Of a DNA stretch of 20,000 nucleotides, positions 18 through 19,500 are shown piece by piece. Below the pieces are notes generated by a model. It saw nothing but the letters and a program-made list of their open reading frames with translations, searched no databases and was not told the DNA's origin. Numbering within the stretch: position 1 is the stretch's first letter; every line of letters starts with the position of its first letter. Origin of the DNA: Chiloscyllium plagiosum (taxonomy: Eukaryota); contig NC_057757.1 of assembly GCF_004010195.1 (NCBI RefSeq), forward strand, positions 9,967,385-9,987,384, written 5' to 3'. Made by a program: the position numbers and the translations under genes.

Positions 18-99
18 GGGAGGCTGGAAGAACACAGCAAGCCAGGCAGCAGCAGGAGGTGGAGAAGTCAACGTTTCAAATATAACCCTGCTTCAGGAC
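18..99 (-). mobile_element. Penelope-like element terminal (pLTR) fragment with degenerate hammerhead motif at 67-99
   Basis: Minus strand reads gtc-CTGAAGC-agggttatattt-GAAAC-GTT-gac followed by ttctccacctcctgctgctgcctggcttgctgtgttcttccagc, similar to the termini at 3202, 4811, 7878 and 10742. Confidence 0.75.
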
Positions 100-738: not shown

Positions 739-929
739 CTGAAAACATGAAATGCTGGGGATCACAGGGGGTCAGGCAGCATCCACGGAGAGAGAGCAAG
801 CTAACGTTTGAGTCTAAATGACTCTTCATTAAGGCTTCATCTAGAGTCATCTATACTTGAAAAGTTAGCTTGCTTTCTCTCCATGGATGCTGCCTGACCT
901 GCTGTGATCTCCAGCAATTTTGTTTTCAG
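739..929. mobile_element. Fold-back Penelope-like mini-element (two pLTR ends back to back)
   Basis: 739-825 is an imperfect reverse complement of 843-929 (gtcaggcagcatccacggagag / ctctccatggatgctgcctgac). Each arm has a decayed hammerhead; the left arm keeps a perfect stem II (gagtc/gactc). Confidence 0.8.
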
Positions 930-1684: not shown

Positions 1685-2680
1685 AAGGACATTGTTGCAT
1701 TGGTGTTGTAGTTCAGAGAAGATTCACTTGGCTGATTCCTGGAAACAACCACATATGCACAGGTTGAACATGTTGTGCCTATACGCACTAGCATTTAAAA
1801 TAATATGAAGTAATCTTGTTTGAACATAGAAAATTTCTATTAGGATGCTGATTTGCTCATAAGGCCTTAATCTAGAGTACTATTTACAGTTTTGGTTTCC
1901 TTACTTGAGAAAGGATGTATTGGCACTGGAGGGGGTGCAGACAGGTTCACTAGGTTGATCCTGGAGTGGAGAGAGTTGGCATGTGAGGAGCAATTCATTG
2001 GAACTTAGAAGAATGGGGGAGGGGGGGATCTCATAGAAACATATAACATTATGAAGGGAATAGATAAGATAGAAGCAGGGAGGTTGTTTGCACTGGTGCG
2101 TGAAAATAGAAGTAGGGAGCATAGCCTCAAAATAAGGAGGATCAGATTCAGAACTGAGTTAAGGAGGAATGTCTTCACCCAAAGGGTTGTGAATCTGTGG
2201 AATTTCCTGCCCAGAGAAGCAGTTGAGACTACTTTATTGAATGTTTTTAAGGCAAAGATAGATAGATTTTTGAACAGTAAAGGAATTAAGGATTACTGTG
2301 AGAGGGCGGGTAAGTGGAGCTGAGTCCAGGAAAAGATCAGCCATGATCTTATTGAATGGTGGAGCAGGCTCAATGGGCCAGATGGCCTACTCCGACTCTT
2401 ATTTCTGATGTTTTTATGTAGATCTAGTTGTTTCAAATAAGGGGTTCCCTACATAAGAAGGGGATGAGGAGGAATCTCATCTTTCAGAGGGTGATGAATG
2501 TTTGGAGTTTAGTCCCCCATTACGCAGTGCAGGATGGACCATTGAAATGTTAAAGACTGAGTTAGATGGAGTTTTGATTGACAAGGAAGTGAAGGGTATG
2601 AAGGCCAGACAGGCCCTAAGGCCTCAATTAGAATTACCTGGGGCCTACCTCTGTCCCCATTTCCTATCTTCTTATGTAAT
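1685..2680 (+). mobile_element. Old CR1-clade LINE 3' fragment, interrupted by a younger CR1 at 1880-2418
   Basis: gttcagagaagattcact... precedes the insert; aaataagggg...gatgaggaggaat...cagagggtgatgaat... resumes after it and ends in cttcttatgt. Confidence 0.6.
1880..2418 (+). mobile_element. 5'-truncated CR1-clade LINE (ORF2 C-terminus and 3' UTR)
   Basis: ORF 2051-2323 has the HSLKI..FRTELRRNVFTQRVVNLWNFLP..FKAKIDRFL CR1 C-terminus; tail gatggcctactcc...tttttatgt. Confidence 0.9.
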
Positions 2681-3201: not shown

Positions 3202-3416
3202 CTGAAAATGTGTTGCTGGAAAAGCGCAGCAGGTCAGGCAGCATCCAAGGAACAGGAGAATCAATGTTTTGGGCATAAGCCCTTCTTCAGGAATGAGGAA
3301 AGTGTGTCCAGCAGGCTAAGATAAAAGGTAGGGAGGAGGGACTTGGGGGAGGGGCGTTGGAAATGTGATAGGTGGAAGGAGGTCAAGGTAAGGGTGATAG
3401 GCCGGAGTGGGGTGGG
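3202..3416 (-). mobile_element. Penelope-like pLTR fragment with mutated hammerhead (3260-3293)
   Basis: Near-identical to 4387-4522 (direct) and overlapping 4724-4902 (inverted). Minus strand: ttc-CTGAAGA-a-gggc-ttat-gccc-AAAAC (GAAA lost). Confidence 0.85.
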
Positions 3417-4247
3417 CACGAAGAGGGCTAAAAAGGGTCATGAAATAGCTTTAGCAAACAGAGTTAAGGAAAATCCCAAAGCCTTTTATTCATATATAAG
3501 GATCAAAAGGGTAACTGCTGAAAGGGCTGACCCACTCAACGACAAAAGAGGAAAGATATGCGTAGCCTCAGAGAAGATTGATGAGATTCTTAATAAGTAC
3601 TTTGCATCGGTATTCACCAAGGAAAGGGACATGGCAGATGGTGAGGTTAGGGATAGGTGTTTGATAACTCTAGGTCAAGTCAGCATGAGGAGGCAGCAAG
3701 TGTTGGTCTGGTCGCCACATTACCAAAAGGATGTAGATGCTTTGGAGAGGGTGTGGAGGAGGTTCACCAGGATGTTGCCTGGTATGGAGAGCACTAGCTA
3801 TGAAGAGAGGTTGAGTAGATTAGGATTATTTTCATTAGAAAGACAGAGGTTGAGGGGGGACCTGATTGAGGTCTACAAAATAGTGAGAGGTAGAGACAGG
3901 GTGGATACCAAGAAGCTTTTTCGCAGAGTTCGGAACTCAAATTACTAGGGGTCACGAGTTCAAGGTGAGAGGGTAAAGGTTTAGAGGTGATATACATGGA
4001 AAGTTCTTTATGCAGAGGGTGCTGGGTGTCGGGAAAGCATTGCCAGAGGAGATGGTAGAGGTGGGCTCGATAGCGTCATTTAAGATGTATCTAGACAGAT
4101 ACATGAATGGACAGGGAGCAAAGGGATACAGATCCTTAGGAAATATGTGGCAAGTTTACCTCAAGGATTTGGATCAGTGCAGGCTTGGAGGTCTGAAGGG
4201 CCTGTTCCTGTGCTGTAATTTTCTTTGTTCTTTGTTCTTCTTGTTCT
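3417..4247 (+). mobile_element. CR1-clade LINE ORF2 3' portion with the RT domain deleted
   Basis: KRAKKGHEIALANRVKENPKAFY..EILNKYFASVFT (pre-RT) joins at ~3706 to WSPHYQKDVDALERV..LRGDLIEVYKI (post-RT); (ttctttg)n tail. Confidence 0.9.
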
Positions 4248-4248
4248 A

Positions 4249-4303
4249 TACAGACAGTTGCCCGTGGCTTGAATTGAACCCAGGTCTGTGAGGCAGCAGT
4301 GCC
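4249..4303 (-). mobile_element. HE1-like SINE head fragment
   Basis: Reverse complement gcactgctgcctcacagacctgggttcaattc...caactgtctgt resembles the head of the 9757 SINE. Confidence 0.7.
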
Positions 4304-4386
4304 ATCCCTGACTGATATCTTCCCTCATTTTCTACCTTTAAGGCACTTCTTAAAGCTTAGTCCCCTTTGACCAAGCTTTTGATCAT

Positions 4387-4939
4387 CCCTTCTTCAGGAA
4401 TGAGGAAAGTGTGTCCAGCAGGCTAAGATAAAGGTAGGGAGGAGGGACTTGGGGGAGGAGCGTTGGAAATGCGATAGGTGGAAGGAGGTCAAGGTGAGGG
4501 TGATAGGCCGGAGTGGGGTGGGAGCGGAGAGGTCAGGAAGAAGATTGCAGGTTAGGAAGGCGGTGCTGAGTTCGAGGGATTTGACTGAGACAAGGTGGGG
4601 GGGGGGGGAAATGAGGAAACTGGAGAAATCTGAGTTCATCCCTTGTGGTTGGAGGGTTCCTAGGCGGAAGATGAGGCGCTCTTCCTCCAACCATCATGTT
4701 GCTATGGTCTGGCGATGGAGGATCCTCCTTCCACCTATCGCATTTCCAACACGCCCCCCCAAGTCCCTCCTCCTACCTTTTATCTTAGTCTGCTTGGCAC
4801 ACTCTCCTCATTCCTGAAGAATGGCTCATGCCCGAAACGTCGATTCTCCTGCTCCTTGGATGCTGCCTGACCTGCTGCGCTTTTCCAGCAACACATTTTC
4901 AGCTCTGATCTCCAGCATCTGCAACCCTCACTTTCTCCT
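4387..4939. mobile_element. Penelope-like element: minus-strand GIY-YIG C-terminus and 3' region (4387-4722) joined to an inverted pLTR (4723-4939)
   Basis: ORF 4394-4690(-) EEERLIFRLGTLQPQGMNSDFSSF is a typical PLE endonuclease end. The inversion junction is the palindrome ggaggatcctcc (4717-4728). Confidence 0.9.
4811..4844 (+). ncRNA. Minimal type I hammerhead ribozyme motif (PLE-associated)
   Basis: ttc-CTGAAGA-a-tggc-tcat-gccc-GAAA-C-GTC-gat. Core intact; first stem II pair mismatched; helix I only 2 bp. Confidence 0.6.
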
Positions 4940-5500
4940 TTCCCCAATTTAGCAAATTTCCTTTTGGGTCACTCTTGTCTTTGTCCATGAGTATTCTAAA
5001 ACTTACAGAATTGTGATCACTATTCCCAAAGTAATCCTGTACTGAAACTTCAACCACCTTGCCGGGCTCATTCCCCAATACCAGGCCCCTTTCCAAATTG
5101 GGCTATTTACATACTGCTCTAAAAAAACGCTCCTGGATGCTCCTTACAAATTCTGCTCCATCCAGACCTCCAACACTAAATGAATCCCAGTCTATGTTGG
5201 GAAAATTAAAATCTCCCATCACTATCACCCTATTGCTCCTACATCTTTCCATAATCTGTTTACATATTATCTCAAGTTCGCTGCTGGGAGGCCTGTAGTA
5301 CAGCCCCAACATTGTTACCACGCCCTTCTTCTGCCCATATTGTTTCACTTCTGAGTCCTCCATAGTGCTCTCCTTCAGCACAGCTGTGATATCCTCTCTG
5401 ACCATTAATGCAACTCCTTCACCCCTTTTACCTCCGTCTCTATCCAGCCTGAAGCATCTTTATTGTTATATTTAGTTGTTAATCTTGCCCTTCCCTCAAG

Positions 5501-5725
5501 ACATGGGTTCAATTCCCACCTCAGGCAACTGTGGAGTATGTACATTCTCCCTGTGTCTCCGTGGGTTTCCTCCCACAGTCCAAAAATGTGCAGGTTCGAT
5601 GAATTGGCCATGCTAAATTGCCTGTAGTGTTAGGTGTAGGGGAATGGGTCTGGGTGGGTTGCTCTTCAGAGAGTTGGTTGGGCTGAAGGGCCTGTTTTTA
5701 CACTGTTGGGAATCTAATCTAATCT
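5501..5725 (+). mobile_element. HE1-like SINE, 5'-truncated with internal deletions, inserted in the CR1
   Basis: gggttcaattccc B box, core gtgggtttcctcccacagtccaaa, aatctaatctaatcta tail. Confidence 0.85.
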
Positions 5726-5849
5726 ATTCCCCTTGGTCACGCTGACTTTATTATCTAGTCCCTTACAGACTTTAGTTATTACCTCCTTACTATCCACTAA
5801 CCTCCTCATTTGGTTCCCATCCTCCTGCCACATTGGTTTAAACCCTCCC

Positions 5850-7013: not shown

Positions 7014-7129
7014 CCACTCAGCTCCTCACTCTCCCTGCTCCCACTCAGCTCCTCACTTTCCCCACTCCCACTCAGCTCCTCACTCTCCCCGCTCCCACTC
7101 TGCTCCTCACTCTCCCTGCTCCCACTCAG
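7014..7129. repeat. 27-bp tandem repeat, about 4.3 copies
   Basis: Unit ccactcagctcctcactctccctgctc starting at 7014, 7041, 7068, 7095 and a partial at 7122. Confidence 0.95.
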
Positions 7130-7877: not shown

Positions 7878-8290
7878 GCTGGAGTGGATAAAGCGTGGCG
7901 CTGGAAAGCAGAGCAGGTCAAGCAGCATCTGAGGAGCAAGAGAGTCAACATTTCAGTCTTACCCCTTCATCAGGTCTGGGAAGGGGGAAGGTGGCTGAGA
8001 GATAAGTGGGAGAGTGGGTATAGGTCTACGGGAAAAGTAGTTGGGATGGCGATAGTTGGGTGAAGGTAGATGAGGTGTTCCTCCTCCAGTTGGGGGTGGT
8101 GTTGGGTAGGTGGTGGAGGAGGCCCAGAATGGACATGTCTTCAGGGGAGGGGGAGGGGGAATTTGAAATGTATGGCTACAGGAAGGTGGGGTCGGTTGGT
8201 GCGTATGGACTAGAAATATTCCCTGAAATGTTTCATGGGACAAGTTTGTGTCCGGTCTCTCCGATGTAGAGGAGACCACATTGCTAGTAA
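7878..8290 (-). mobile_element. Penelope-like fragment (GIY-YIG remnant plus pLTR with degenerate hammerhead at 7944-7976)
   Basis: Minus strand encodes GLLYIGETGHKL near 8243-8278 and reads gac-CTGATGA-aggggtaagact-GAAA-TGTT-gac. Confidence 0.8.
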
Positions 8291-8402
8291 TGGATGGAGT
8301 GAATGAGATATGTTGGGAAAAACTAACTCGCAATAATATTGTGGAGGCTGAATTTGTGTATTAGTTTCTTAGAGCTATACAGGGCAACCACTTTATCTGT
8401 TG

Positions 8403-8899
8403 TGGTTCTGTTCGCCGAGCAGGAAGTTTTTGTTGCAAACGTTTCGTCCCCTGGCTAGGCGACATCATCAGTGCTTGGGAGCCTCCTGCGAAGCGCTTCT
8501 TTGATGTTTCCTCCGGTGTTTATAGTGGTCTGTCCCTGCCGCTTCGGGTTGTCAGTTTCAGCTGTCCGCTGTAATGGTTGGTATATTGGGTCCAGGTCGA
8601 TGTGTTTGTTGATGGAATTTGTGGATGAATGCCATGCCTCTAAGAATTCCCTGGCTGTTCTCTGTCTGGCTTGCCCTATGATAGTAGTGTTGTCCCAGAA
8701 GGCAAATGTGCTAAACCCCACTACATTCGTCTTGCTCATGTTGGGTATCGGGTCCTTCGTTCTGGTGAGTTGTTGTCTGAGCAACATGAATTCGACTGGG
8801 ACAACAACTGGGACGAAACGTTTGCAACAAAAACTTCCAGCTCGGCGAACAGAACCACAACAACGAGCACCCGAGCTACAAATCTTCGCACAAACTTTG
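8403..8899. mobile_element. Young rearranged Penelope-like element (second subfamily) with inverted termini and 17-bp TSD
   Basis: aaccactttatctgttg at 8386-8402 and 8900-8916. 53-bp inverted repeat 8398-8450 / 8810-8862 with one mismatch. GIY-YIG remnants RQQLTRTKDPIPNMSKTNVV and WDNTTIIGQARQRTAREFLEAWH. Confidence 0.9.
8435..8474 (-). ncRNA. Minimal type I hammerhead ribozyme, best-preserved copy
   Basis: gca-CTGATGA-t-gtcgcc-tagcca-ggggac-GAAA-C-GTT-tgc. Complete core, helix I gca/tgc, helix II with one mismatch; predicted GUU cut between 8438 and 8437. Confidence 0.75.
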
Positions 8900-9129
8900 A
8901 ACCACTTTATCTGTTGGTATGGTTACCACGATTTCATGTTACCTATGGTTTACTGCAGCCTGAACATATTACATGAAACATTCTAGAACCAGGGACAACT
9001 GGGGGCTGCCAGGGAGGTAAATTTCCCATTTAAATGAATGGGTTTGCTCCTATCCATGGTTTCGGGCATCCGCAGTGGGTCTTGAAATGTAGCCCCTGTG
9101 GATATGGGGGACTACTCTACATTGAGGAA

Positions 9130-9466: not shown

Positions 9467-9690
9467 TGTGTTCCTCCAGGTGCTCTGGTTTCCTCCCATG
9501 ATCCAAAGATGTGCAAGTTAGGTGAATTGACCATGCTAAATTGCCCCATGGTGTCCAGAGATGTGCAGGCTAGGTGTGTTAGCTATGGGAAAAATGTAGG
9601 ATTGTAGGGGGATGGCTTTGGGTAGGATACTCTTCGGAGGGTCAATGTGGACTTGTTGGGCCAAATGGCCCGTTTCCACACTGTAGGGAT
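9467..9690 (+). mobile_element. HE1-like SINE, 3' two-thirds
   Basis: ttcctccaggtgctctggtttcctccca core and ttgggccaaatggcccgtttccacactgtagggat tail. Confidence 0.85.
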
Positions 9691-9699
9691 TCCAAAGTA

Positions 9700-10195
9700 T
9701 TCATAATCCACCTAAACATCTTTAGACTGTGGGAGGAAGCCGGAAAATGTATGTGTGGGCGGCATGGTGGCACAGTGGTTAGCACTGCTGCCTCACAGCG
9801 CCAAAGACCCAGGTTCAATTCCCGCCTCAGGCGACTGTCTGTGTGGAGTTGGCACATTCTCCCCGTGTCTGCGTGGGTTTCCTCTGGGTGCTCCGGTTTC
9901 CTCCCACAGTCCAAAGATGTGCAGGTTAGGTGAATTGGCCATGCTAAATTGCCCGTAGTGTTAGGTAAAGGGGTAAATGTAGGGGTATGGGTAGTTTGCA
10001 CTTCGGCGGGTCAGTGTGGACTTGTTGGGCTGAAGGGCCTGTTTCCACACTGTAAGTAATCTAATCTAAAATCTGGAGGAAACCCACATAGACACAGGGA
10101 GAATGTGCAAACTCCACACAGTCATCGGAGGGTGCATTTGAACCCAAGTCCCTGGCCCTCTGAAGCAGCAGTGCTAACCACTGAGCCCCCTGCCA
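9700..10195 (-). mobile_element. HE1-like SINE interrupted by an opposite-strand SINE
   Basis: acatctttagactgtgggaggaagccgg (to ~9748) resumes as ctggaggaaacccacatagacacagggagaatgtgc...gtgctaaccactgagcc (10071-10195). Confidence 0.8.
9757..10069 (+). mobile_element. Full-length HE1-type tRNA-derived V-SINE
   Basis: A box tggcacagtgg at 9768-9778, B box ggttcaattcc at 9812-9822, central conserved domain, CR1-like tail ending taatctaatctaa. Confidence 0.92.
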
Positions 10196-10598: not shown

Positions 10599-10741
10599 TA
10601 CTCCATATAAGGTAGCAGTGGTGCCAGTATGTCTGACAAACCACCATGACACCTCCCTTATTTGGTCAATGCAGGAGGCTGCAGGTTACAGGTTACAGGA
10701 CAGCTCACACAATTTTTAATCTAGGTCAGAGTTTAAACTAG

Positions 10742-10918
10742 AGCTGAAATTGTGTTGCTGGAGAAGAGCAGCAGGTCAGGCAGCATCCAAGGAGCAGGAG
10801 AATTGACGTTTCAGGCATGAGCCCTTCTTCAAGAATTCCTGAAGAATTCGTGCTGCGCTTTTTCAGCAACACATTTTTCAGCTCTGATCTCCAGCATCTG
10901 CAGTCCTCACTTTCTCCC
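10742..10918. mobile_element. Fold-back Penelope-like mini-element with 15-bp TSD
   Basis: TSD cagagttta(a/g)actag at 10727-10741 and 10919-10933. Arms meet at gaattc (10833-10838). Minus-strand hammerhead ttc-TTGAAGA-a-gggc-tcat-gcct-GAAAC-GTC at 10802-10835. Confidence 0.88.
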
Positions 10919-11089: not shown

Positions 11090-12280
11090 CATAGAATCTA
11101 CCAACAACAACTCTGGAGACTGTCTGATGAAGAGGCTCCTTGCAGTGTAGGAAGTCAGACCACTTACAGAGAAGCAGGAACAAAACTTCATTCTAGTTCA
11201 ATCATCAGTGGATGTAAATGAGGCTCAAAGTAATCCTGCAGCTCAACAAATTGGCCACAGTATGAGATCTCTTGGATTATGGAGTTAGAGACAGGTCTTC
11301 AATTACAAGACAGTGGTCTCACAGCTCTGACGTAGATTCATGAACACGGATGCTTTGAGCAGGGTGGAAAACACCTGACCTGCATCAACGGAAGGTAAAC
11401 TTTCTGCAACCTATCTTTCCAATCATGGAAAGAAAGCATTAATACAAATTTGATATATTTGGAGAATTACTTTAAACTTCAGGAAAGACCCATCAAGAAG
11501 AAATCAATGACTACAAGGAGAAAGGAAGTGGCTAAACAAGATACAGGACATGCTCAAGTCCAAATTTGGATCATGGGGTTGGGACAGTGGCTTAGTGGTT
11601 CACATTGCTGCCTCACAGCGCCAGGGAGCCGGGTTCTATTCCACCTTCAGGCTACTGTCTGTGTGGAGTTTTTGCACATTCTACCCATGTCTGTGTGGGT
11701 TCCTTCTGGATGCTCTGATTTCCTCCCACAGCCTAAAGATGTGCAGGTTAGGGTGGATTGACCATGGTTAATTTGTCACATTGTGTCCATGGACGTGCAG
11801 GTGAGATGGATTGGCCATGGGAAATGCAGAGTTACAGGTATGAGTATGGGTGGGGTGCTCTTTGGAGGGTCAGGGTGGATTCGATGGGCTGAATGGCCTG
11901 CTTCCATGCTGTAGTGATTCTTCGAAACAGCCAACATTTAGAAAATCAATAAGCAGTGTAACTGGCAGCCATCACATTAACAGGGTATTTACCCACCTGG
12001 GACTTTTTAAAAAGCTGTCAAACTGGGGGAGCACGTTATCAAGCTTCAGGGGTGCACAATGCCTTTTTGGAGACTAGATTTGTGTATCTGAAAGAGCTTG
12101 ATTTGACATAGTTTTAACAACTGAAGTAGGCTAACCACGTTAAAGGGAGTGCTGATCACAAAAGCCCCACTCGCTGCCCTCTCACAACGCAGCAAACCAT
12201 GGGCACTTCACAAAAAGAAGCTTCCAAGTTGAATGTCACAGATATCTGACAGACATCATCAATGTTCTCATGCAATTAAT
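11090..12280 (+). mobile_element. Possible very old Gypsy LTR retrotransposon pol relic (RNase H end, integrase start)
   Basis: WIMELE (11273-11290), FNYK..MNTDALSR (11298-11363), KAPLAALSQRSKPW (12161-12202) and HRYLTDII in the expected order; many stops and frameshifts. Confidence 0.35.
11575..11920 (+). mobile_element. HE1-related SINE, older and longer subfamily
   Basis: gtggcttagtggttcacattgctgcctcacagcgccaggg..gggttctattcc head, conserved core, gggctgaatggcctgcttcca tail. Confidence 0.85.
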
Positions 12281-13391: not shown

Positions 13392-14818
13392 TTGATAGTC
13401 ACAGGTGAGGTGCCAGAAGAACTGGAGGTTGGCTAATGTGGTACTACTATTTAAGAAAGGTGGTTAGGACAAGCCAGGGAACTATAGACCAGTGAGCCTG
13501 ACGTCGGTGGTGGGCAAGTTGTTGGAGGGAATACTGAGTGACAGGATTTACACATATTTGGAAAGGCAAGGACTGATTAGGGATAGTCAACATGGCTTTG
13601 TGCGTGGGAAATCATGTCTCACAAACTTGATTGAGTTTTTTGAGGAAGTAACAAAGAGGATTGATATGGATTTTAGTAAGGTGTTCAACAAGGTTCCCTG
13701 GGAGACTGGTCAGCAAGGTTAGATCTCATGGAATACAAGGAGAACTAGCCATTTGGATACAGAACTGGCTCAAAGGTAGAAGACAGAGGGTGGTGGTGAA
13801 GAGTTGTTTTTCAGACTGGAGGCCTGTGACCAATGGAGTACCACAAGGATCGGTGCTGGGTCCACTCCTTTTTGTCATTTCTATAAATGATTTGAATGTC
13901 AACAAAGGAGGTATAGTTGTTAAATTTGCAGATGACACCAAAATTGGAGGTGTAGTGGACAGCGAAGAAGGTTACCTCAGATGACACCAAGATCTTGATC
14001 AAATTGACCAATGGGCTGAGCAGTGGAAGATGCAATTTAATTTAGATAAATGCAAGGTGTTGCATGACTTATACATTTAATGGTAAGGTCCCAGGGAGTG
14101 TTGCTGAACAAAGAGACCTTGGAGTACAGCTTCATAGCTCCTTGAAAGTGGAGTCGCAGGTAGATAGGATAGTGAAGAAGGCATTTGGTATGCTTTCCTT
14201 TATTGGTCAGAGTATTGAGTACAGAAGTTGAGAGGTCATGTTGTGGCTGTACAGGACATTAGTTAGGCCACTGTTGGAATATTGCATGCAATTCTGGTCT
14301 CCTTCCTATCGGAACAATGTTGTGAAACTTGAAAGGGTTCAGAAAAGATTTCCAAGGATTTTGCCAGGGTTGAAGGATTTGAGATATAGGGATGGTTGAA
14401 TAGGGTGGGGCTGTTTTCCCTGGAGCAATATAGAGATGATCTTATAGAGGTTTACAAAATTTTGAGGGGCATGGATAGGATAAATAGGCAAAGTCTTTTC
14501 CCTGGGGTGGGGGAGTTCAGAACTTGAGGGCATAGGTTTGGGGTGAGGGGGAAAGATATAAAAGAGACCTAAGGGGCAACTTTTTCATGCAGAGGGTGAT
14601 GCATGTATAGAATGAGCTACCAGAGGAAGTGGTGGAGTCTAGTACAATTGCAACATTTAAAAGGCATCTGGATGGGTATGTGAATAGGAAGGATTCAAAG
14701 AGATATGTGTCGGGTGCTGGTAGGTGGGACTGGATTAGGTTAGCATATCTGGGTTGGCATGGATGAGTTGGACCGAAGGGTCTGTTTCTGTGCTGTACAT
14801 CTCCATGATCAATGACTC
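13392..14818 (+). mobile_element. 5'-truncated CR1-clade (HER1-like) LINE with frameshifted RT
   Basis: SLTSVVGKLLE, SQHGFVRGKSCLTNL, MDFSKVF, GVPQGSVLGPLLF, KFADDTKIGG; 3' UTR ends ctccatgatcaatgact. Confidence 0.93.
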
Positions 14819-15524: not shown

Positions 15525-18500
15525 TTTTATTCATTTGTGGGACTTGGGCATTGCTGTCTGGCCAGCATTGACAGCCCATCCTTATTTGCCCTTGAGAAGG
15601 TGGTGGTGAGCTGCTATCTTGAATCGCTGCAGTCCACTTGAATCGCTGCATTGACCCACAATGCCAGTAGGAAGAGGATTCCAGGATTTTTACCCAATGA
15701 TTGTGAAGGAATGGTGATACATTTCCATGTCAGGCTGGTGAGCGGCTTAGAGGGGAACTTGCAGGTGGTGGTGTTCCCAAGTACCTGCTGCCCTTGTCCT
15801 TCCAGATGGAAGTGGTCATGGGTTTGGAAGGTGCTGTCTCAGGATCTTTGGTGAATTTCTGCAGTGCATCTTGTAGATAGCACACACTGCTGCCACTGGG
15901 CACCGGTGGTGGAGGGGTTGAATGTTTGTAGATGTGATGCTAATCAAGCGGGCTGCTTTGTCATGGATGGTTTGATTAGATTAAATTAGATTCCCTACAG
16001 TATGGAAACAGCCCTTCAGCCCAACAAATCCACACCGACCCTCCAAAGAGTAATCCACCCAGACCCATTCCCCTATCCTATATTTACCCCTGACTAATAC
16101 ACCTATCACTATGGGCAATTTAGCATGGTCAATTCACCTGACCCGCACATCTTTGGATTGTGGGAGGAAACCGGAGCACCCAGAGGAAACCTATGCAAAC
16201 ACGGGGAGAATGTGCAAACTCCACACAGACAGTCACCTGAGGAGGCAGGAATTGAACCTGGGTCCCTGGCCATGTGCTAACCACTGAGCTACCGTGCCGC
16301 CCCAATGGTGTCAAGCTTCTTGAGTGTGGTTGGACCTGCATCCATCCAGGCAAATGGGGAGTGTTCCATCACACTCCTCATTTGTGCCTTGGAAATGGTG
16401 GCTAGACTTTGGGGTGTCAGGAGATGAGACTCGCTGCAGTATCCTCGTCTCTGACTTGCTCTTGTAGCCACTGTGTTCATGTGGTGAGTCCAATTGAGTT
16501 GCTGGTCAATGGTAACTCCAAGGACGTTGACAGTGGGTGATTCAGTAATAGTAATACCATTAATTGTCAAAGGGTAGTGGTTCAAGTGTCGCTTATTGGT
16601 GATGGTCATTGCCCGGCATTTGTGTGCCGTGAATGTTACTTGGCACTTGTTGGCCAAAGCCTGGATATTATCCAGATCTTGTTGCAATTGAGCACGGATT
16701 GCTTCAGTATCTGAGGAGTCGCGAATGCTACTGAACACTGTTCAATTATTTGCGAGCATCCCTAATTCTGATCTTATGACAGAGGGAAGGTAATTGATGA
16801 AGCAGCTGAAGATGTTTGGGCCTAGGACACTACCCTAAGAGACTCCTGGAACTGAGATGACTCACCCTCCATAACCACAACCATCTTCCTTTGTGCCAGG
16901 TATGACTCTAACCAATGGATGTTGCCCCCCCATACTCATTGATTCTAGTTTTGCCAGGGCTCCTTGATGCCATACCCGGTCAAATGCAGCCTTGATGTGA
17001 GGGTCTGTCACTCTCCCCTCCACTCTGGAATTCAGCTCTTTTGTCCATGTTTGAACCGAGGCTGTAATGAGGTCAGGAGCTGAGTGACCCTCGTGAAACC
17101 CAACCTGGGCATCACTGAGCAGGTTATTGCTGAGCAGGTGCTGTTTGATGGCCCTGTTGATGACTTTACTGATGAAGGAGCATAGACAGATTAGGCAATA
17201 ATTGGCCGGGTTGGATTTCTCCTGCATTTTGTGTACAGAACATACCTGTGCAATTTTCTGTTCACTGATGTGTTCAGCACAGTGTTCAGCACCATTCATG
17301 ACTCCTCAGATACCGAAGCAGTCTGTGCACAAATGCAACAAGATGCCAGGGTAGATGTCAGTGTTAAAACTTTACTGGAAGAGCTTGGTTTGGGGATCAG
17401 AAAGTTCTGGAGTTCACGTCTTCAGTACTATTGCCAGAATGTTCTCAGGGCCCATTGCCTTTGCAGTATCCAGTGCCTCCAGCCATTTCTGGATATTTCG
17501 GGGAGTGAATGGAATTGCCTGGAGACTGGTATCTGTGAGGCTGGGGACCACTGTAGTAGCCTGAGATGGATCATCTACTCAGCACTTCTGACTGAAGATT
17601 GTTGCAAATGCATCAGCCTTATCTTTTACACTGATGTGCTGGGCTCCTCCATCATTGAGGATGGGGATATTTGTGGAGCAGCTCCTCCAGTGAGTTGTTA
17701 AATTGTCCAGCACCATTCACGACTGGATGTGGAAGGACTGCAGAGCTTAGATCTGATGTGTTGGTTGTGGGAGCACTGAGCTCTGTCTATCACTTCCTGT
17801 TTATGCCTATTTAGTACCTTCACCAGGTTGACACCTCATCTTTAGATCTGCCTGGTACTGCTCCTGGCACGCCCTCCTGCAGTTTCCTTTGAGCCAAGGT
17901 TGATCCTCTGGCTTGATGGCAATGGTTGAGTGGGCGATGTACCAGGCCATGAGGTTACAGATTGTGCTGGAGTACAATTCTGCTGCTGTTGATGACCCAC
18001 AGCGCCTCATGAATGCCTAGTCTTAAACTGCTAGATCGGTTCGAAGTCTGTCCCATTTAGCACAGTGATAGCACCACACAACAAAATGGAGAGTATTCTC
18101 AATGTGAAGGCGGGACTTTGTTTCCATAAGGACAGTGCGGTGGTCACTTTTATCTATACTGTCATGGACAGATGCTCCTGAAGCCAGCAGATGATTATGG
18201 ATGATGTCCAGTATGCTTTTCCCTCTTGTTGACTCCTTCACCACCTTCCACAGACCCGGTCTAGCAGTTATATCCTTTAGCGCCCGACAAGCTCGATCAG
18301 TAATGCTGTTGCTGAGACACTCTTGGTGGTGAACATTGAAATCCCCCACCAAGAGTACATTCTGTGCCTTTGCCACCCTCAGTGTTTCCTCCAAGTGTTG
18401 TTCAACATGGAGGAGCACTGATTCATCAGCTGAAGGAGGACAATACTTGATAACCAGTAAGAGGTTTCCTTGCCCATGTTTAGCCTGAAGCCATGAGACC

Positions 18501-19000
18501 TCATGGGGTCCAGAGTCGACGTCAAGGACTCCTGGGGCAACTCCCTCCTGACTGCATGCCACTGTGCAGCCACCTCGGCTGGGTCTGTCCTGCCAGTGGG
18601 ACAGGCCATATAGAGGGATGGTAAAGGTGGTGTCTGGGGTGTTATCTGGAAGGAATGATTCTGTAAGAATGACTACATCAGGCTGTTGCTTGACTCGTCT
18701 GTGAGACAGTTCTCCCAATTTCAGCATGTGCTCCCAGATTTCAGTGAGGAGAACTTTGCATGGTCAACAGAGCTGTTTGTGTTTTTGCCGTTGTATTTTC
18801 TGGTTCCAAGGTCAATGCCAGGTGGTCCAGGGTTTCATTTCTTTGTTGTGAGTGTCTAGCGATTGATACGACTGAGTGGCCTGTGAGGCCATTTCAGAGG
18901 GCAGTGGAGAATCAACCACATTGCTGTGGCTCTGGAGTCACATGGAGGCCAGATTTCCTTCCCTAAAGGGCATTAGTGAACCAGCTGGGCTTTTCTGATA
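15525..19000 (-). mobile_element. Near full-length degenerate APE-RT LINE (CR1/L2 group); 5' end runs into the gap
   Basis: APE in 18023-18727 (PDVVILTES, YCPPS, VGDFNVHH, SDH); RT in 16862-17299 (NPANY, LSDAQVGF, IKAAFDRVWH) and 16289-16738 (LQQDLDNIQ, LGVTIDQQLNW); 3' end atgaataaaa on the minus strand. Confidence 0.9.
15974..16303 (-). mobile_element. Full-length HE1-like SINE inserted in the LINE
   Basis: Head gggcggcacggtagctcagtggttagca and (aatct)n tail on the minus strand; atggt occurs on both sides (possible short TSD). Confidence 0.9.
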
Positions 19001-19500
19001 NNNNNNNNNNNNNNNNNNNNNNNNNNNNNNNNNNNNNNNNNNNNNNNNNNNNNNNNNNNNNNNNNNNNNNNNNNNNNNNNNNNNNNNNNNNNNNNNNNNN
19101 NNNNNNNNNNNNNNNNNNNNNNNNNNNNNNNNNNNNNNNNNNNNNNNNNNNNNNNNNNNNNNNNNNNNNNNNNNNNNNNNNNNNNNNNNNNNNNNNNNNN
19201 NNNNNNNNNNNNNNNNNNNNNNNNNNNNNNNNNNNNNNNNNNNNNNNNNNNNNNNNNNNNNNNNNNNNNNNNNNNNNNNNNNNNNNNNNNNNNNNNNNNN
19301 NNNNNNNNNNNNNNNNNNNNNNNNNNNNNNNNNNNNNNNNNNNNNNNNNNNNNNNNNNNNNNNNNNNNNNNNNNNNNNNNNNNNNNNNNNNNNNNNNNNN
19401 NNNNNNNNNNNNNNNNNNNNNNNNNNNNNNNNNNNNNNNNNNNNNNNNNNNNNNNNNNNNNNNNNNNNNNNNNNNNNNNNNNNNNNNNNNNNNNNNNNNN
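19001..19500. other. Assembly gap (500 N)
   Basis: Run of N; the round length suggests a placeholder size. Confidence 0.99.

What the first reader, a model, noticed from the sequence alone, without database searches (positions are those of the whole stretch)
8435..8474. Minimal hammerhead ribozyme family repeated across PLE subfamilies, with covarying helix I
Seen: the motif NNN-CTGANGA-x-stemII-GAAA-CG-TH-N'N'N' or decayed versions occur at 67-99(-), ~799-835(-), 3260-3293(-), 4811-4844(+), 7944-7976(-), 8435-8474(-) and 10802-10835(-). Helix I changes sequence but keeps pairing in the best copies (gtc/gac, gca/tgc). Helix II also varies (gggc/gccc, gagtc/gactc, gtcgcc/ggggac). Helix III is reduced to the palindrome ACGU with no loop, and there is one extra nucleotide after A9. 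Established: PLEs carry minimal type I hammerheads thought to cleave as dimers. Inference: this genome holds a dense, diversified set, and the 8435 copy may still be active through intermolecular or tandem pairing.
Basis: partly seen in the sequence, partly recalled or inferred. Interest (0 to 1): 0.75.

Follow-up and report, generated by a model that had tools for sequence, protein, structure and literature searches.

The report
Known Penelope hammerheads in shark genome
These are real copies of the tiny "hammerhead" self-cutting RNA motif already known from Penelope-like jumping genes, with an intact core about 168,000 times in this likely shark genome; the 8435 copy keeps a perfect core and carries the element's start and stop codons, but it sits in a broken, truncated insertion and is predicted to cut weakly if at all.

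Summary
Confirmed and largely known. All seven sites are the top seven hits of a covariance model; only 8435 has both an intact core and intact helices I/II. The core pattern occurs 167,934 times genome-wide versus 1,403 for the reversed control. Helix I covaries across 12 subfamily representatives (33 of 36 Watson-Crick cells, permutation p about 1e-4 within clades); one subfamily swaps ACGU for AGCU. These features match the published PLE minimal hammerhead (PMC4209133). The 8435 copy ends a dead, inverted Penelope/Poseidon-type insertion; the other six are Neptune-like. In the 8435 family A9-U-G10.1 is the ORF start codon (as in Anolis PAc, PMC11167929), the stop lies in loop II and a TATA box lies upstream, so cutting would remove cap and start codon. 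Neptune-like stubs stop just upstream of the motif with an extra G (12 of 17), so their templates were likely capped and uncut. No clear genomic trace of cleavage. This scan found the same class many times before, including in this genome.

The parts
8435..8474 (-). Minimal type I hammerhead of a Penelope/Poseidon-type family (P1): helix I 8474-8472 with 8437-8435, core 8471-8465, extra U 8464, helix II 8463-8458 with 8451-8446, GAAA 8445-8442, predicted cut between 8438 and 8437
   Evidence: exact 34-mer present 3,714 times genome-wide
8463..8465 (-). ATG formed by A9, the extra U and G10.1; start codon of the family's RT-endonuclease ORF
   Evidence: the frame opened here runs into the RT in locus L108 and in P0010
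8455..8457 (-). TAG stop codon of the family ORF, in loop II
   Evidence: ORF 8455-8922(-) ends here; same end in L034, L035
8519..8524 (-). TATAAA box 48-53 nt upstream of C3; predicted pLTR promoter
   Evidence: present at -48 to -53 in all 5 P-type subfamilies examined; function inferred
8398..8698 (-). 5'-truncated element end: C-terminal part of the GIY-YIG endonuclease, pLTR with hammerhead, short 3' end 40 nt after the cut
   Evidence: (84% identical to P0001)
8719..8782 (-). Displaced ORF fragment from just upstream of the GIY-YIG motif
8780..8806 (+). Short inverted ORF fragment
8810..8901 (+). Inverted partner copy: 3' half of the hammerhead (8810-8822) and long 3' end with the ~38-nt tail
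   Evidence: (I12)
8386..8402 (.). Left copy of a 17-bp direct repeat flanking the insertion (target-site duplication, partly overlapping element ends)
   Evidence: sequence
8900..8916 (.). Right copy of the same direct repeat
   Evidence: sequence
4811..4844 (+). Neptune-like subfamily N1 hammerhead, core intact, G10.1 changed; inverted partner of the 4387-4693(-) copy
4387..4693 (-). Neptune-like element end: endonuclease C-terminus, ending inside the 5' half of a hammerhead (4387-4400)
3260..3293 (-). N1 hammerhead, decayed (G12, G16.2)
10802..10835 (-). N1 hammerhead, decayed (C3, helix I); fold-back partner starts at 10835(+)
7944..7976 (-). Decayed hammerhead at the end of an older Neptune-like GIY-YIG remnant (7959-8340); nearest same-strand motif to 8435
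67..99 (-). Subfamily N4 hammerhead, decayed
799..835 (-). Subfamily N5 hammerhead, decayed; inverted partner at 835-919(+)
   Evidence: (I11)

Best explanation
The seven motifs are copies of the known minimal type I hammerhead carried in the terminal repeats of Penelope-like retrotransposons, left behind in truncated, often inverted insertions of two lineages, and the ribozyme likely sits at the very front of the parent element's transcript, where it would cut slowly and likely only as a dimer or with the element's protein. Shown: the motif, its covariation between subfamilies, its link to RT and GIY-YIG coding sequence, the start codon (A9-U-G10.1) and stop codon (loop II) inside the 8435-type motif, and that nearly all genomic copies run through the cut site. 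Inferred: a promoter just upstream (TATA box in the Poseidon-type, initiator and extra-G stub ends in the Neptune-like N1 family); reverse transcription starting 40-97 nt downstream of the cut on mostly uncut RNA; cutting as an occasional step that would remove the cap and, in the Poseidon-type, the start codon. Selection acts on rare source elements; the window's copies are passengers, and 8435 is intact because its family is young.
For: 167,934 intact-core matches versus 1,403 reversed control; 80 model hits in 565 kb of 60 arbitrarily placed 10-kb stretches, 7 of them training sequences. Helix I 33 of 36 Watson-Crick cells in 12 subfamily representatives versus 13.4 permuted, 21.1 permuted within clade (p 1.1e-4), 4-7 of 36 when slid; structure 93.3% paired, covariation 0.788 versus 0.296 shuffled, 0 of 500; N7 varies (T 18, A 16, G 3 of 37); subfamily N6 has AGCU in place of ACGU. 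[quoted passage not shown] Start codon frame runs into RT. N1: 75 of 100 intact-core copies end within 17 nt upstream of C3, mode at the first base of helix I, next base G in 12 of 17 (p 0.002; 9 of 14, p 0.017, after removing one duplicate and two fold-backs; G at other end points 14 of 51). Published parallels: PMC4209133, PMC11167929, PMC8557442.
Against: No cleavage or transcription start was observed directly: the RNA run laid showed reads on both strands, 73-96% running on into unrelated sequence, and no start or end pile-up. Read-through of the cut site cannot separate uncut from cut-and-religated RNA. Subfamily representatives are single decayed copies, are related, and were picked by a descriptor that required helix II pairing, so helix II covariation is partly circular (helix I was not required). 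No RT was recovered for the Neptune-like families and no tree was built. The extra-G sample is small and comes from one 6-Mb stretch of one contig.
Confidence: 0.85

Rival explanations
1. Cut-and-circularise model: two hammerheads in a tandem transcript cut out a unit-length RNA that is ligated into a circle; the circle restores the start codon to the ORF and is the template for long copies.
For: Proposed in PMC4209133 (discussion read). The ORF (about 837 aa, unit about 2.5 kb) overlaps itself by 11 nt in the motif, so a cut-to-cut linear monomer lacks its AUG while a circle would have it. Near-full-length copy L108 runs from 3-4 nt before the cut to the long tail of the next unit.
Against: N1 stubs ending at a predicted cap site with an extra G point to capped, uncut templates. 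In Anolis PAc, ribozyme mutants insert normally in vitro and no RNA reads begin or end at the cut (PMC11167929). A tandem linear transcript explains L108 equally well.
Confidence: 0.2
2. The 8435 copy itself is an active ribozyme in the animal, transcribed from its own TATA box or inside a host RNA and dimerising with another copy or with the 7944 motif 460 nt downstream on the same strand.
For: Intact core and helices; TATA box retained; 3,714 identical 34-mers could pair in trans; a predicted 8-bp outer extension of helix I (z -1.83); the AUGU of 7944 could pair with ACGU with one G.U (inference).
Against: ACGU duplex -1.7 kcal/mol, and the predicted monomer and dimer folds pair the core instead; adjacent P-type motifs are divergent in 25 of 30 pairs (some loci overlap); monomers inactive and dimers weak in PMC4209133; 1 of 9 Xenopus dimers cleaved (10.64898/2026.07.22.740005); no RNA read could be assigned to this locus.
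Confidence: 0.12
3. The motif is kept for reasons other than cutting (protein-binding fold, promoter and coding constraints), or merely rides along as a parasite of the elements.
For: PLE clades without hammerheads spread well (PMC8557442, passages); no clear cut-site footprint here; in P-type the 5' core is also coding sequence.
Against: The full catalytic core, the H17 rule (C, U or A, never required to pair) and the palindrome are kept in both lineages with different coding overlaps; the PAc motif does cleave in a C3/G8-dependent way (PMC11167929).
Confidence: 0.2
4. Chance matches in repeat-rich DNA.
For: The loose pattern alone is at chance level in the window; no Rfam hit.
Against: 120-fold excess over the reversed control, 37 versus 0-3 hits in shuffles, covariation.
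Confidence: 0.01

Closest known systems
[quoted passage not shown]
   Same: Type I, no helix III loop, palindromic 15.2-16.2, extra base between 9 and 10.1, G10.1-C11.1, many consensus families with compensatory changes, mostly solo copies, nearby pairs on opposite strands.
   Different: Main text has no occurrence of 'shark' or 'Callorhinchus' and reports about 4,000 (coelacanth) and 9,000 (Xenopus) motifs versus 167,934 here (different descriptors, so not directly comparable); no mention of start codon.
PAc, Poseidon element of Anolis carolinensis, Frangieh et al. 2024, PMC11167929 (parts 1-2 of 4 read, main text; supplements not seen)
   Same: RT plus C-terminal GIY-YIG; ORF starts at the start of stem II; cut 26 nt after the start codon (28 here); two 3' ends defining a 30-40-nt tail downstream of the motif.
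   Different: PAc cleavage was measured (needs the protein, not needed for insertion); nothing was measured here. 'Stop codon' and 'TATA' do not occur in its main text.
EN+ PLE insertion structure and clades, Craig et al. 2021, PMC8557442 (passages)
   Same: 5'-truncated copies, adjacent inverted copy, one-sided tail; CX2-5CxxC linker before the endonuclease marks Neptune and Nematis and is present in the N-type (L033) and absent in the P-type (L035).
   Different: Clade placement here rests on motifs, not on a tree.
Lunse, Weinberg and Breaker 2017, small PLE hammerheads that cleave as dimers (not held; title seen in the reference list and summarised in passages of PMC6765202)
   Same: Dimer cleavage of short-helix-III PLE hammerheads.
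   Different: Could not check whether shark sequences are included.
Animal non-LTR retrozymes, bioRxiv 10.64898/2026.07.22.740005 (parts 1-2 of 5 and passages)
   Same: PLE-derived type I hammerheads, reported in one chondrichthyan genome.
   Different: Retrozymes are head-to-tail arrays; the window's copies are solo or inverted element ends.

Membership tests
PLE minimal hammerhead (min-HHR) | Core CUGANGA, GAAA, UH in type I order | tested here: met
   8435 and 4811 intact; 167,934 genome matches versus 1,403 control
PLE minimal hammerhead (min-HHR) | Loop-less palindromic helix III | tested here: met
   15.2-16.2 is CG 21, its CpG-decay forms TG 7 and CA 6, GC 2, other 1 of 37 unconstrained hits
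PLE minimal hammerhead (min-HHR) | Extra base after A9 and G10.1-C11.1 pair | tested here: met
   12 of 12 representatives have the extra base and G10.1; C11.1 in 10, U in 2
PLE minimal hammerhead (min-HHR) | Compensatory changes in helices I and II across families | tested here: met
   helix II partly selected by the descriptor; relatedness only roughly controlled
PLE minimal hammerhead (min-HHR) | Located in the terminal repeat of an RT plus GIY-YIG element | tested here: met
PLE minimal hammerhead (min-HHR) | Self-cleavage as dimer or with protein | not testable with these tools
   indirect genomic footprint weak
Rfam hammerhead families | Match to an Rfam hammerhead model | tested here: not met
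   9 hits at E up to 10, none a hammerhead
Penelope/Poseidon clade (8435 family) | Single ORF, RT then C-terminal GIY-YIG, no Zn-finger linker | tested here: met
   L034, L035, L108, L120 translations; Pfam RT significant, GIY-YIG weak at E 0.067; pieced from broken copies, no intact copy seen
Penelope/Poseidon clade (8435 family) | Inverted truncated partner and one-sided 30-40-nt tail | tested here: met
   ends at +40 and +76 to +79
Penelope/Poseidon clade (8435 family) | RT phylogeny | not tested
   no reference set of clades was on hand
Neptune clade (other six motifs) | CX2-5CxxC linker before GIY-YIG | tested here: met
   L033 CX4CxxC then GIY-YIG (E 1.8e-4), DNA-linked to window copies 4381-4700 and 7941-8340; shared with Nematis; coding link not shown for the 67 and 799 subfamilies
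Neptune clade (other six motifs) | RT phylogeny | not tested
   no N-type RT recovered
Non-LTR retrozyme | Head-to-tail array with a hammerhead in each unit | tested here: not met
   none in the window; 5 of 30 adjacent P-type pairs same-strand

The most novel reading that the evidence does not exclude
The PLE hammerhead is a 5'-end switch, not a multimer-resolving tool: both lineages place it within the first 30-55 nt of a capped transcript, and in the Poseidon-type the newly made protein triggers a cut that removes cap and start codon, shutting off translation, while reverse transcription runs mainly on uncut RNA. The half-million shark copies record where the RNA starts and that it was mostly uncut when copied.
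Probability: 0.3. Interest if true: 0.6.

Novelty: new member of a known kind. Interest (0 to 1): 0.27.

Why it matters
What the hammerhead does for Penelope-like elements is still open (PMC8557442 says so). This genome offers a young family with thousands of near-identical copies and at least 12 covarying subfamilies, a ready panel for cleavage and translation assays, and its insertion ends give indirect evidence on transcript start and on whether templates were cut. The motif itself, its odd features and its link to PLEs are published, and the window's copies are passengers.

Tried and rejected
Cut-site footprint, Neptune-like N1 (1,032 copies ending within 7 positions around the cut after filters; hand count of the first 100 listed, one hypermutated row dropped, ambiguous rows split): 18, 15, 19 (cut), 7, 9, 13, 14; p 0.08 for the cut bin, and CpG decay and microhomology inflate that bin. 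Poseidon-type (all 89 rows): non-fold-back 7, 9, 14 (cut), 6, 13, 12, 2, p 0.06; 4 ambiguous rows set aside; 22 rows (about 18 events) are fold-backs centred on the TGCA palindrome at the cut, which would raise the excess to roughly 2-3 fold but are equally explained by palindrome microhomology (fold-backs also occur at the 10-nt palindrome upstream); the control at the ACGU palindrome could not be run. 0 of 100 P1 rows and 2 of 81 N-type copies end exactly at the cut. Verdict: inconclusive, under 1% of copies. One search was meant to test the extra G but excluded the wrong letter and is uninformative. One search showed no sharp 5' pile-up for the P-type. RNA: no RNA holder listed for the stretch; of two same-species raw-read runs one gave 411 and 2,557 reads without start or end peaks, the other 0 reads; reads cannot be assigned to a locus. 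One search used a structure string off by one column and was redone. N6 was left out of alignment A2 because MAFFT shifted it; it is included. protein comparison failed because L033 is frameshifted; DNA comparison used instead. Candidate same-strand pairs 2.4-3.7 kb apart (L022, L023, L025) held no PLE ORF of 150 aa or more. The N1 stop codon at the core UGA was seen in 1 of 4 copies only. Single-motif folding z-scores are unremarkable. Literature searches listed no paper on shark PLE hammerheads; subscription papers and supplements were not searchable.

Full report
Observation. All seven motifs are present as stated. A covariance model built from 10 subfamily representatives ranks them first to seventh in the window, E 1.5e-13 to 5.4e-4, followed by partial copies at 835-874(+) and 4377-4405(-) and then noise (17 hits at E up to 5); only 8435 was in the training set. 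Only 8435 keeps both a full core and helices I and II; 4811 keeps the core but not G10.1; the other five have core changes. Rfam has no matching family.

Scale. The window lies at the end of contig C48 of a 3.56-Gb assembly; the closest named protein is from Chiloscyllium punctatum at 89% identity, so the host is likely a related shark. CTGANGA-N11-22-GAAACGTH occurs 167,934 times versus 1,403 for the reversed pattern. The exact 8435 34-mer occurs 3,714 times and the main N1 28-mer 41,780 times, controls 0. Sixty arbitrarily placed 10-kb stretches (565 kb without N) gave 80 model hits, 7 of them training sequences, which extrapolates to about half a million whole or decayed motifs. The window has 2 strict matches where 0.9 are expected, so it is not a special locus.

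Covariation. Clustering of hits in these stretches, one window-adjacent stretch and the window and earlier loci gave 12 subfamily representatives, five P-type and seven N-type. The first three pairs of helix I are Watson-Crick in 33 of 36 cells, versus 13.4 under permutation, 21.1 under within-clade permutation (p 1.1e-4) and 4-7 when slid. On the 10-row alignment all 3 helix I pairs and 3 of 4 helix II pairs change on both sides; score 0.788 versus 0.296, 0 of 500 shuffles. The variable core position N7 takes U, A or G, and one subfamily replaces ACGU by AGCU. Caveats: representatives are single decayed copies, related by descent, and helix II pairing was part of the descriptor.

What carries them. 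The 8435 motif ends ORF 8455-8922(-), whose C-terminal 77 residues are 84% identical to the end of P0001, an RT-containing protein. [quoted passage not shown] The window copy is one dead insertion, 8386-8916, bounded by a 17-bp direct repeat and made of 8398-8698(-), 8719-8782(-), 8780-8806(+) and 8810-8901(+); it has no RT. Its two ends, +40 and +79 from the cut, reproduce the one-sided tail; the 100 listed of 2,030 tail copies diverge into unrelated flanks at about that point. The other motifs belong to N-type families; those at 3260, 4811, 7944 and 10802 are linked by DNA similarity to a remnant with a CX4CxxC linker before GIY-YIG (L033), i.e. Neptune-like; no tree was built.

Anatomy of the 8435 family. 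A9, the extra U and G10.1 spell ATG (8465-8463). The frame opened there continues into the RT in near-full-length copy L108 and in P0010. The ATG is present in 5 of 5 P-type representatives and 0 of 7 N-type. The ORF's TAG lies in loop II (8457-8455) in 4 of 5. A TATAAA box lies 48-53 nt upstream of C3 in all five P-type subfamilies despite divergent surroundings. The cut falls 28 nt after the A of ATG. This parallels Anolis PAc, whose ORF starts at stem II with the cut 26 nt downstream (PMC11167929). Inference: cutting would remove cap and start codon from the mRNA.

Insertion ends. In N1, 75 of 100 intact-core copies (the first 100 listed on C1; one lies against an N gap) stop within 17 nt upstream of C3, 63 within 5 nt; the mode is the first base of helix I, inside a TCATTCC initiator-like sequence (consensus recalled), and the next base is G in 12 of 17, versus 14 of 51 at other end points (9 of 14 after removing one duplicate and two fold-backs). 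An unbiased sample agrees: 13 of 27 high-identity copies end 16-40 nt upstream of the cut. So these templates were likely capped and uncut. Ends exactly at the cut show at most a weak excess in both lineages (p 0.06-0.08) and are under 1% of copies; 22 of 89 P-type rows are fold-backs at the palindrome on the cut, which fit either cleavage or microhomology. I therefore could not confirm the earlier claim (e1-8023442) that such copies show cleavage in the animal.

Is 8435 active? For: intact core, retained TATA box, thousands of identical partners, a predicted outer extension of helix I. Against: predicted folds pair the core, the ACGU duplex is -1.7 kcal/mol, its own partner is a half motif on the other strand, adjacent P-type motifs are divergent in 25 of 30 pairs, and published monomers are inactive, dimers weak (PMC4209133) or protein-dependent (PMC11167929). 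RNA reads show only passive transcription of family copies, both strands, no end peaks.

Verdict. New here are the host group and scale, as far as four literature searches show (Lunse 2017 and all supplements unseen), and indirect evidence that the motif heads a capped transcript and overlaps start and stop codons. The scan has reported the same class 770 times in at least 36 genomes. New member of a known kind; interest 0.27.

Noticed in passing
G000:C17:1792888-1792955: A P-type copy with a run of about nine T inserted exactly at the predicted cut site; would fit a cut RNA that was tailed and rejoined, but it is a single case.
   Followed up: no
L041:8128-8172(-), L095, L079, L098: Subfamily N6 has the palindrome AGCU and cuts after UA instead of ACGU with UC/UU; a compensatory change in the dimer helix.
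   Followed up: partly
G000:C1:6645565-6645632: An N1 copy in which runs of A on the sense strand read as G, resembling A-to-I hyper-editing of the template.
   Followed up: no
window 750-919 and 10740-10918; L031, L032, L178: Short fold-back insertions made of two head-to-head pLTR stubs joined at or inside the 5' half of the hammerhead; these account for the weak miRNA-precursor hits in Rfam.
   Followed up: partly
window 8419-8426 and 8482-8489 (-): This copy has a point change that perfects a predicted 8-bp outer extension of helix I (family majority has one mismatch there).
   Followed up: partly
P0003: A Chiloscyllium punctatum MAP3K7 isoform model contains about 160 residues 90% identical to this PLE ORF; either an exonised copy or an annotation artefact.
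   Followed up: no
window 5103-5459(-), 13468-14700(+), 16289-18763(-), 2009-2323(+), 3325-4290(+): Fragments of ordinary LINE elements (AP endonuclease and RT Pfam hits for three of them).
   Followed up: partly
window 5498-5730, 9470-10070(+), 11574-11915(+), 15974-16290(-): Abundant SINE-like repeats with a tRNA-like head; ARAGORN found no tRNA.
   Followed up: partly
window 7014-7127 and 19001-19500: A 27-bp minisatellite of about four copies, and a 500-N assembly gap.
   Followed up: no
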